Positions 29,901 through 32,900 of a DNA stretch of 64,000 bases are shown in pieces. The stretch's first letter is position 1; each line of letters opens with the position of its first letter. The position numbers and the translations under genes are program-made. The notes beneath the pieces were generated by a model. It ran no database searches. It saw only the letters and a program-made list of their open reading frames with translations, and was not told the origin of the DNA. Source of the DNA: Mytilus edulis (taxonomy: Eukaryota); assembly GCF_963676685.1 (NCBI RefSeq), contig NC_092352.1, positions 73,470,001 through 73,534,000 on the forward strand. The letters run 5' to 3'.

Positions 29901-32900
29901 GAAGCAGACTCCATAACAAGATTTTCTTCAGACAAATTAACAAATATATCATTTTCCTTTAAGTTTCATATTCCACTATAAAGATTATTTCATTTCCCTT
30001 AATGAATCAGAGATTGGGGAGTATGTCGAAGGCACCTATGCCATCGAGTGTAACCCAAAAGAAACAAGATATACAGTTAAAACATTCTGATATCTTGACC
30101 TACATCTTATAATTTACAATGTTGGTCGATTGAGAACAACACTTTACGATACAAAGATGGTTATAACTTTCTGAGTGTAAACGTTCCATTGCTATGTAGT
30201 GCCTGCAGATAAAGTACATGTCTACTGTTTCATACCACATTCAAGACCTTTCCTACAATAACTCCTTAAACGTGGGATGCTACATGTACTTATAATAAGA
30301 CCGAGTTCAAAGTGGGTTGCTTGATTTGTACAAGAGTTCAAAGTGGGGATTTTAATCTGACGAATAGACTTTGTCAGTCAAAGTAAACCTGATAATGGTA
30401 CATTTAGAAGAAAACTATGTGTCTTTCCTTTTCAACGCAGTGACGTTGATTAAGACTGCGGTCCCACACCTTGACATATCATTTACTGATTTTAGAAGGT
30501 TGCAGCCTTTCATAAAAAAATACTCAAATATCACTTTTAATTAATAAATGCTAATAAAACACAAATGTTTACAAATTATGCCTCAAAATGAAGTATTTGA
30601 CAATTTGTCTTATCTTGTTTATTATAACGATGCTTAACGTTGTGATGAAAGATGTCAAATGATATTCTGATACAAGAACATATATTGCAATCCACTGCTC
30701 ATCACATAAGCAACACGACGGGTGCCGCATGTGGAGCAGGATCTGCTTACCCTTCCGGAGCACCTGAGATCACCCCTAGTTTTATGGTGGGGTTCGTGTT
30801 GTTTATTCTTTAGTTTTCTATGTTGCGTCGTGTGTGATGTTGTTTGTTTGTCTTTTTCATTTTTAGCCATGGCGTTGTCAGTTTGTTTTAGATTTATGAG
30901 TTTGACAATCCCTTTGGTATCTTTCGTCCCTCTTTTTAAAATCTAAAACACAAAAAACGTATGAGTGACAAAAACTGGTTTCATAAGAATGAGCTTATTT
31001 GGACTTGTTTTTCTTTTAAGAACAATTGTTTAAAAGGTAAGTCAAATTTGTTTTGGAATAAAACGTCTTTCTCCATGGTACATGTATAAAGTTTTCAATT
31101 TGAAATCTTGCAACAAAATAAATACCAAAAATTTAGTTGCATTAAATATATTTCGTTTTTCATAACAAATGATAAGATATTTATTGACATTGACATGTGA
31201 AAATAGAGTAATTTCTTATATATTTTATCAATATAACACTATAGTTGTTACCTATCAAATGATTGATACCACTGCAAAAGGACTTTAGTCCTTTTTCGTA
31301 GTAGTTTATCTCTATCAAGTACTTCGGTAATTACAAAAGTACAGATATTGATTTATTTTTAACTAAAAAAGTATGAAGGGTAAAATTAACTGTTGTCTCT
31401 AAATAATTGGTTCAATTTGGTTCAGTTGAGTTTGAACAGCCCTATAAAGTAAGTATTAGGTCTCGGACTTTTGATTTTTCAATGTGGAGAGCATCACTGT
31501 AGACATAATTTGTCAAGGAAGACCAGAGGGACGAAAGATACCAGAGGGACAGTCAAACTCATAAATCTAAAACAAACTGACAACACCATTGCTAAAAATA
31601 AAAAAGACAAACAGACAAACAATAGTACACATGACCAAAAGGTAGAAAACTAAAGAATAGGCAACACGAACCCCACCAAAAACTAGGGGTTATCTCAGGT
31701 GCTCTATTTGTGTAGTTGTTAATGTCTCTGTCATTTTGGTCTCTTGTGGATAGTTGTCTCATTGGCAATCATACCACATCTTCTTTTTTTTTTTTTTTTA
31801 TAAAAACCCGTGAAATTCAAATGGAACCAAATTAACTGTTCTAGTCGAAAATATTTTAATGATTTTTATGGTAACTTATTACTTCTTTTCAATAGGATGT
31901 AAAAGATGGTGTTTCCGTGTAAGTCGTTTTGATGAAATAGTCGTGCAAACCATTTTTGCTGGTTTAATTCAACAGGCATTACTTTACCTTTTAATAGGAA
32001 AATTTTTCATCACATTGATTATGATAACAAGAATAATAAAACTGATAATCATAATAATTATCAAAATAAAATAAGCACTAATAATAAAAAATCCAATAAC
32101 GATTCAATTTATGAGTTTCGAACAGCGGTATACTACTGTTGCCTTTATTTAATACTTTTTATCATATGTCACACGATTTTGATTTCGATTAGTTGATAAA
32201 TAAGGATGAATATGTCTTACCGTCCATTGACCATCAACTCTCATTTCACAATAGACTTCAACTGTCATGTTATCAACGTTTATTTCGTAAACACCACTAA
32301 GACTGCCTCCAGAGATGTCGCTACAATCAATAACCATGGCTGCCGTTTCATTTTCTGTCGTACTGTCAATGGTTATAACAGTGGATACTTTGTCGGTTGT
32401 TGTTGTAAAATTAGTTGTTATGTCATGAACTGTAAGTTTCGTTGCTGTTGTTAAGTCGTCGGATTCTTTATAGGTTATATTGCCGTTTGTAGTTGGTATT
32501 CCGGTAGTCGATATTTGTTCTAGTGTTGTGCTGTCACTTGATGTATCTGGGTCTGTTGCAATGTTGATTGTGATGTCACGTAATGTCGGAGCCGTCGTTG
32601 TTGTTGATAAGTCATCGGATTCTTTATAGGTTGTTTTGTCGTTTGTTGTTGTTGGTTCGGTAGTCGATATTTGTTCTAGTGTTGTGTTGCCACTTGATGT
32701 ATCTGGGTTTGTTGCAATGTTGATTGTTTCTACATCTGTTAAATAATGTATGTAAAACAGTCATGCTGAATTATTTATAAGTTATAATACTGTAAATTCA
32801 GAAATTATTGCGTGCATTTATTATTGCGATTTTATCATTTAAGACTTAAATGCAATTTTAATTTTTACGTATTTGAGAAAAATCCTGTTAAATTCATATA

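What the first reader, a model, noticed from the sequence alone, without database searches (positions are those of the whole stretch)
30950..31450. Copy C is a head-swapped chimera with a visible breakpoint at ~31175
Seen: C exons 1-2 and promoter resemble D/E ([11 protein letters not shown]), while exons 3-5, introns 3-4 and the 3' flank resemble B (exon 3 protein identical; shared MITE and RT remnant). Left of ~31175 the sequence (tttcataacaaatgataa) matches B intron 2 up to ~10 nt from B's exon-2 donor (49501-49518). Right of it (gatatttattgacattg...ccactgc..aaggact) matches D intron 2 from ~7 nt inside D's exon-3 acceptor (14719 on). So C intron 2 is nearly two whole introns joined end to end. 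Inference: a deletion or illegitimate recombination fused a D-type gene to a downstream B-type gene, giving an intact new PAN/FReD combination.
Basis: partly seen in the sequence, partly recalled or inferred. Interest (0 to 1): 0.75.

Follow-up and report, generated by a model that had tools for sequence, protein, structure and literature searches.

The report
Duplication-seam hybrid mussel lectin gene
In a mussel gene cluster, one intact fibrinogen-domain gene has the front half of one neighbour and the back half of another, joined at a seam inside an intron; it was likely made by a tandem duplication, a known way of creating genes, though the seam lies oddly close to both intron ends.

Summary
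Gene C (minus strand, 35599-26633, five exons, 443 aa, no stop) has a D-type promoter and exons 1-2 and B-type exons 3-5. The seam is a shared TT at 31175-31174: D intron 2 minus its last 6 nt joined to B intron 2 minus its first 11 nt. Exon trees are incongruent (AU p 1.3e-7 and 2.6e-5). Contigs of 4 of 4 public runs laid (three species labels) bridge the seam, and a M. galloprovincialis gene model has the same mosaic, so it is not a misassembly. The mechanism needs correcting: B lies upstream of C and D downstream, and the B-C and C-D spacers are colinear copies, so C most likely sits at the junction of one head-to-tail duplication rather than at a plain deletion. The seam cuts inside the fibrinogen domain, and D/H already carried a B-type exon 5 (likely an older chimera), so the combination is less new than claimed. 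All three D-type copies are broken; C alone keeps this PAN exon intact. Splicing of exon 2 to exon 3 was not shown. Unexplained: only 17 intron bases were lost (chance about 2e-4).

The parts
35317..35599 (-). C exon 1: hydrophobic leader (by eye) and PAN/apple module, D/E/H type
   Evidence: fold of the orthologue's module matches apple domains, Z 11.4
35600..36767 (-). C upstream/promoter region, D type
   Evidence: JC distance to D 0.15 over 1042 columns
32221..32735 (-). C exon 2: Thr-rich stalk and first ~37 residues of the fibrinogen domain, D/E type
   Evidence: spliced to exon 1 in one contig of run X15
31174..32220 (-). D-type part of C intron 2 (keeps the donor, lacks the last 6 nt with the acceptor)
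31174..31175 (-). Seam: TT shared by D (14718-14717) and B (49518-49517)
   Evidence: bridged by contigs in 4 of 4 runs
29574..31175 (-). B-type part of C intron 2 (lacks the first 11 nt with the donor, keeps the acceptor); holds an RT-element remnant shared with B and G
29477..29573 (-). C exon 3, B type
   Evidence: 96% DNA, 32 of 32 residues equal to B
28582..28746 (-). C exon 4, B type
   Evidence: 92% to B
26633..26904 (-). C exon 5, B type, with stop
   Evidence: 89% to B, 84% to H
31176..49518 (-). First copy of the inferred duplicated unit: B 3' half, spacer, C 5' half
14717..31175 (-). Second copy of the inferred duplicated unit: C 3' half, spacer, D 5' half
45285..51965 (-). Gene B, intact in my model (575 aa): donor type of C's 3' half
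   Evidence: orthologue VDI-type protein P0007
13055..19384 (-). Gene D, broken (stop in exon 1, frame breaks in exons 2 and 3, insertion in exon 4, no exon 5): donor type of C's 5' half
3604..6698 (-). Gene E, exons 1-3 (exons 4-5 lie beyond the window start); exon-1 donor and exon-2 acceptor lack GT/AG, stop in exon 5; outgroup for the D-type half

Best explanation
C is an intact hybrid gene with D-type promoter and exons 1-2 and B-type exons 3-5, likely born at the junction of one head-to-tail tandem duplication that ran from the start of B intron 2 to the end of D intron 2. Shown: the mosaic, the seam, the order B-C-D, the colinear spacers, the open frame. Inferred: a non-homologous repair event (2-nt overlap) copied 'B 3' half + spacer + D 5' half', leaving B and D whole on either side. 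Because both introns are phase 0 and the seam removed D's acceptor and B's donor, the two introns would be spliced out as one 2647-nt intron and the frame is kept. The product is predicted to be a secreted PAN - Thr-rich stalk - fibrinogen-domain lectin, in which B's ligand-binding half is expressed from D's promoter with D's PAN module and a shorter stalk. C then likely replaced D, which decayed. A role in pattern recognition is inferred from the family only.
For: Mosaic and seam. Trees: C with B rejected for exons 1-2 (protein, p 1.3e-7); C with H rejected for exons 3-4 (DNA, p 2.6e-5). Spacers: four blocks of B-C align in order with C-D and abut within 2 nt (44029-43819 / 25561-25372; 37652-37336 / 25374-25004; 37336-37188 / 19384-19232; then 36767 / 19230). 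Ages overlap in both halves and the spacer (JC 0.15-0.28 for C-D, 0.12-0.23 for C-B, 0.17-0.23 for spacers). Polarity from E and G. Reality: a contig bridges the seam with at least 180 nt on each side in 4 of 4 runs laid (0, 1, 3 and 11 other letters); M. galloprovincialis VDI57214.1 has 85 of 94 residues of C exon 1, 41 of 42 of the exon-2 end and 32 of 32 of exon 3. Constraint: B-C exons 3+4 dN/dS 0.10. Only 4 of 67 genome hits to exon 1 exceed 70% identity: C, D, E, H; D, E, H are broken.
Against: The final structure is the same as duplication of a B-D pair followed by a deletion; this genome cannot separate them. Only 17 intron bases were lost at the seam, with chance 1.3-2.0e-4 under uniform breakpoints, and the overlap is ordinary (9% of position pairs share 2 or more nt), so a random junction does not explain where it fell. 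The exon 2 to exon 3 splice was not seen; 3 of 4 RNA runs show next to no cover of C's exons. D and H are closer to each other (JC 0.05-0.13) than either is to C in introns 1-2 while the promoter is a three-way tie, so later exchange between copies blurs the dates. The bridging pieces are short-read contigs, not long reads across the 18-kb unit.
Confidence: 0.72

Rival explanations
1. Two steps: a B-D pair was duplicated whole, and a later deletion from D1 intron 2 to B2 intron 2 fused the two inner genes.
For: Gives the same map. CAG2197368.1 (P0003, M. edulis) has a D-type exon 1 in front of B-type exon-2 sequence, so a D-type start upstream of a B-type body exists in another assembly or in its gene model.
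Against: Needs two events where one is enough; no remnant of D1's 3' half or B2's 5' half in the 264 kb examined; P0003's DNA could not be read and may be an annotation join.
Confidence: 0.17
2. The first junction fell in or next to the exons and left a small internal block with D's acceptor and B's donor; a second small deletion removed just that block, which is why the seam hugs both splice sites.
For: D exon 3 starts GTGATA and B intron 2 starts GTATGATA, a possible first overlap; loss of a stray acceptor would be favoured; explains the 17-nt loss better than one random cut.
Against: No intermediate seen; all 4 bridging contigs follow the window's form. The first junction must itself fall near both sites.
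Confidence: 0.06
3. RNA-guided origin: a precursor with D exon 3 ... B exon 2 between the two introns lost that block through reverse transcription of a back-splicing by-product, which joins the end of the upstream intron to the start of the downstream one.
For: The seam has that topology, 6 and 11 nt from the two splice sites, at chance about 2e-4; RT elements are abundant in the locus.
Against: The join is not at the branch point and G+1; no precursor seen; the likely older chimera D/H has its seam about 100 and 200 nt from intron ends, so the pattern does not repeat; the case was picked by eye from a large scan.
Confidence: 0.04
4. Misassembly of two haplotypes or paralogs.
For: Mussel genomes are highly heterozygous (recalled); the window has one 100-N gap at 60456-60555.
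Against: C differs from B and D by 11-23% in introns; seam bridged in 4 of 4 runs from four studies and three species labels; the same mosaic in VDI57214.1.
Confidence: 0.01

Closest known systems
Chimeric genes formed by tandem duplication (Drosophila yakuba, PMC5460883; passages seen)
   Same: [quoted passage not shown]
   Different: Here the parents are paralogs with the same five-exon plan, the chimera is old (JC about 0.17), shared by more than one species, and its 5' parent has decayed; the seam keeps nearly two whole introns. No expression change was measured.
Mytilus fibrinogen-related proteins (FREPs/FReDs; PMC5549309 and PMC3039611, passages seen)
   Same: C-terminal Fibrinogen_C domain (P0002: 228.7 bits, cut-off 22), member of a large, diverse mussel family thought to act in pattern recognition.
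   Different: N-terminal PAN module and Thr-rich stalk; the two Cys of the P-domain loop seen in human FGL1 are absent. The passages seen do not describe this architecture or a chimeric origin. Ligand unknown.
Unequal crossing-over / gene conversion hybrids in tandem gene families (recalled, no call)
   Same: Hybrid of two adjacent paralogs, switch of nearest relative along the gene.
   Different: Those switch at homologous positions and leave one intron's worth of sequence; here the seam joins non-homologous positions and leaves two.

Membership tests
Chimeric gene from tandem duplication | 5' part from one gene, 3' part from another, with a single switch point | tested here: met
Chimeric gene from tandem duplication | Chimera lies between both parents: 3' donor upstream, 5' donor downstream | tested here: met
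   order B, C, D on the minus strand
Chimeric gene from tandem duplication | DNA between the parents is duplicated head to tail | tested here: met
   colinear spacer blocks
Chimeric gene from tandem duplication | Made in one step, not by duplication then deletion | tested here: inconclusive
   ages of the halves overlap but both routes predict this; no other genome could be read
Chimeric gene from tandem duplication | Transcribed and spliced across the seam | tested here: inconclusive
   one X15 contig joins exon 1 to exon 2 and leaves the genome at the exon-2 donor; its last 10 letters are not shown
Homologous unequal crossover hybrid | Breakpoints at matching positions in the two paralogs | tested here: not met
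   end of D intron 2 joined to start of B intron 2; 2-nt overlap
Fibrinogen-related protein (FReD) | Fibrinogen_C domain above the Pfam cut-off and fibrinogen fold | tested here: met
   exons 3, 4, 5 of C score 46.7, 60.1, 63.6 bits (cut-off 22); orthologue model matches H-ficolin, Z 21.5, rmsd 3.1 over 200
Fibrinogen-related protein (FReD) | Second (P-domain) disulfide as in FGL1 | tested here: not met
   both Cys replaced in P0002 and in C; this lowers 'canonical binding site', not 'FReD'
Fibrinogen-related protein (FReD) | Binds carbohydrate or microbes | not testable with these tools
   no assay
PAN/apple domain | Pfam PAN_1 score above the cut-off | tested here: inconclusive
   C exon 1 19.4 bits against 21.4; relatives A and P0004 pass
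PAN/apple domain | Apple fold | tested here: met
   P0002 residues 38-112, pLDDT about 90, match 2yil_A Z 11.4 rmsd 2.2 over 72 and kallikrein/HGF apple domains Z 10.9-11.0

The most novel reading that the evidence does not exclude
The seam is the fossil of an RNA-templated exon deletion: a back-splicing by-product, in which the end of one intron is tied to the start of a later intron, was reverse-transcribed and recombined into the chromosome, removing exons and keeping both introns. With the likely older D/H chimera (seam in intron 4) and P0003 (switch in intron 1), the locus would be an intron-anchored shuffler of immune-lectin modules.
Probability: 0.04. Interest if true: 0.85.

Novelty: new member of a known kind. 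Interest (0 to 1): 0.42.

Why it matters
It is a clean, base-resolved example of how mussels diversify a lectin family: not only by point change but by re-joining halves of neighbouring paralogs, probably more than once at this locus, with the hybrid outliving its 5' parent. It gives a ready test of whether promoter/PAN and ligand-binding halves evolve as separate modules (compare B and C expression and binding). The seam's closeness to both splice sites is a real oddity that a genome-wide count could turn into a question about how such junctions form. The kind of event itself is well known.

Tried and rejected
Microhomology as the reason for the seam's place: rejected; 2 nt exact, and the local alignment score at the seam is reached by 26% of position pairs (gap cost 2). 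Treating the inverted cluster F-G-H (window coordinates 127-169 kb) as a clean snapshot from before C: rejected for H, which shares more recent ancestry with D in introns 1-2; only G and E were kept as outgroups. Positive selection on exon 5: not shown (B-C dN/dS 0.55). Protein trees of exons 3-4 alone are unresolved (8 of 10 inner branches open). RNA: raw runs X23 and X24 (about 6% of each read) and contigs of X16 give next to no cover of C's exons and no exon joint was listed; this shows no expression in those samples only. X15 pieces on exons 3-4 cannot be assigned to B or C. No C-type protein from M. coruscus, M. trossulus or M. californianus appeared in three searches; annotation gaps make this weak, since the window's own B and C are not listed either. 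Literature: no listing on this gene or architecture; none on RNA-templated intron-intron seams (0 papers; 1 unrelated listing); one search gave 3 listings, not read; PMC3350314 was not held. Supplements were not opened and subscription papers are not searched, so a prior description is not excluded. Earlier scan notes: none near the locus.

Full report
Setting. The window lies at G000:C9:73470001-73534000 in a 1.37-Gb genome. The closest named proteins are all from Mytilus. I read 50 kb upstream and 150 kb downstream as well. tblastn and splice-site inspection give five minus-strand copies, in the direction of transcription A, B, C, D, E, and a plus-strand group F, G, H at window coordinates 127-169 kb. 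The plan is five exons: leader plus PAN, Thr-rich stalk plus the start of the fibrinogen domain, then three fibrinogen exons. B (575 aa), C (443 aa) and F (391 aa) are open; my F model matches the public protein P0009 by eye, which supports the exon boundaries used.

The observation. C 31174-31516 matches D 14717-15060 at 84% and C 30930-31178 matches B 49299-49521. Tiles of 200 nt switch from D/H/E to B between tiles 31400 and 31200. By exon, C is 84% like D and 47% like B in exon 1, 86 and 63% at the end of exon 2, 84 and 96% in exon 3, and 92 and 89% like B in exons 4 and 5. A clade of C with B-type genes is rejected for exons 1-2 (13 protein rows, p 1.3e-7; H and A lack the exon-2 part and P0003 was left out). 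A clade of C with H is rejected for exons 3-4 (5 DNA rows, p 2.6e-5) and exons 3-5 (p 0.0085), but not on protein exons 3-5 (p 0.197). At the seam D is followed to 14717 and B from 49518, sharing TT; D's last 6 intron bases (with AG) and B's first 11 (with GT) are missing. B and C also share an RT-element remnant in intron 2 and a dispersed repeat in intron 4 in the same flanks.

Is it real? Of 24 runs listed I laid four of the 14 best holders. Each has a contig across the seam: X1 30916-31369, X2 30944-31391, X10 30995-31373, X12 30969-31523, with 0, 1, 3 and 11 other letters, from four studies and three species labels. One may be the assembly's own sample; X2's kind is not on record; these are short-read contigs. 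VDI57214.1 of M. galloprovincialis has the same mosaic in one gene model. Misassembly is excluded for the seam.

Which copy is derived? E is an outgroup to C, D and H in the promoter (JC 0.25 against 0.15) and its D-type intron 2 runs straight into exon 3. G is an outgroup to B and C in intron 2 (0.27 against 0.11) and has this intron behind a B-type exon 2. So the double intron of C is the derived state.

Mechanism. The 3' donor B lies upstream of C and the 5' donor D downstream, and both remain. The B-C and C-D spacers align block by block in the same order, with neighbouring blocks abutting within 2 nt and differing by insertions. So 49518-31176 and 31175-14717 are two copies of one unit, and C spans their junction. 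Distances overlap for the 5' half (0.15-0.28), the 3' half (0.12-0.23) and the spacer (0.17-0.23). One tandem duplication explains all this; it is the pattern described for Drosophila yakuba (PMC5460883, passages). Duplication of a whole B-D pair followed by a deletion gives the same map and cannot be excluded here; P0003, a M. edulis model with a D-type exon 1 before B-type exon-2 sequence, keeps that route alive. Both introns are phase 0 and the inner splice sites are gone, so one 2647-nt intron with an open frame is predicted.

What remains odd. Any cut in the two introns would give an in-frame hybrid, yet only 17 bases were lost; uniform cuts do that with probability 1.3-2.0e-4, and the overlap is ordinary. 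Chance plus selection of a striking case from a large scan, a second trimming deletion, or a splicing-linked route are the candidates. The last has the right topology but not the exact ends, and the older seam in H does not repeat the pattern.

How new is the product? Less than 'new PAN/FReD pair' suggests. The seam cuts inside the fibrinogen domain. H matches E from promoter to about 100 nt into intron 4 (to 168194) and B from 168309 through exon 5 and flank; H with E is rejected for exon 5 (p 5e-55) but not for exons 3-4 (p 0.4). D/H is therefore likely an older chimera of E and B, and already paired this PAN type with a B-type exon 5. M. coruscus proteins show B-type (P0006) and E-like (P0008, P0005) forms. 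What C changes is exons 3-4 and, against B, the promoter, PAN and stalk. D, E and H, the only other genome hits above 70% to C exon 1 among 67, carry stops, frame breaks or dead splice sites, so C is the only intact carrier in this assembly; E's stop is absent in P0038, so decay varies between haplotypes.

Expression and protein. In X15 (guessed RNA) one 632-nt contig joins exon 1 to exon 2 with 13 other letters in 622 and leaves the genome at the exon-2 donor; its last 10 letters are not shown. The other 3 of 4 runs show next to no exon cover. The orthologue's model has a confident apple fold at residues 38-112 and a fibrinogen fold at 230-449, with low confidence in the stalk and P-domain loops (mean pLDDT 58). 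The two P-domain Cys of FGL1 are missing. Exons 3-4 are under purifying selection (dN/dS 0.10) and exon 5 is looser (0.55). A pattern-recognition role is inferred from what is written about mussel FREPs (PMC5549309, PMC3039611; passages) and was not tested.

Verdict. A real, old, conserved chimeric lectin gene, most likely at a tandem-duplication junction: a new member of a known kind, with one unexplained detail at the seam.

Noticed in passing
window coordinates 168093-168503 (L017, H intron 4) and D 13055-12592: D/H look like an older chimera: E-type promoter to exon 4, B-type end of intron 4, exon 5 and flank, switching between 168194 and 168309.
   Followed up: partly
P0003 (CAG2197368.1): M. 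edulis model with a D-type exon 1 followed by two B-type exon-2 units: a third combination or an annotation join.
   Followed up: no
window 15880-13019 against 158259-168128: D and the inverted copy H, 150 kb apart, are 85-95% alike here but 80% in the promoter: likely later exchange between inverted copies.
   Followed up: partly
P0007 against B, C and H: The M. galloprovincialis B orthologue has exon 4 closer to C (53 of 54) than to B (50 of 54) and an exon-5 start like H: exchange of 3' exons seems to continue between species or haplotypes.
   Followed up: no
window 26633-26904 and exon 5 of B, E, F, H: Both Cys of the fibrinogen P-domain loop are missing in this cluster (A keeps one), while paralogs elsewhere (P0017, P0021, P0023) keep both.
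   Followed up: partly
window 38368-41874: Penelope-like RT element (472-codon frame, weak RVT_1 match) as an inverted pair, arms 97.5% alike over 1120 nt, in the B-C spacer.
   Followed up: no
window 49677-50312: B exon 2 holds an 84-nt in-frame tandem repeat (about 7 copies, 95% alike) that lengthens the Thr-rich stalk; copy number differs in P0007.
   Followed up: no
window 55297-62764: Gene A has exons 1, 4 and 5 but no exon 2 or 3 was found; a 100-N gap lies at 60456-60555, so they may be unassembled.
   Followed up: partly
window 1-2365: GC-richer stretch with long frames that look like a retrotransposon (by eye); the two frames tested had no Pfam match.
   Followed up: no
G000 C1-C14: 63 further, more distant matches to the PAN exon across the genome show a large family of such modules.
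   Followed up: no
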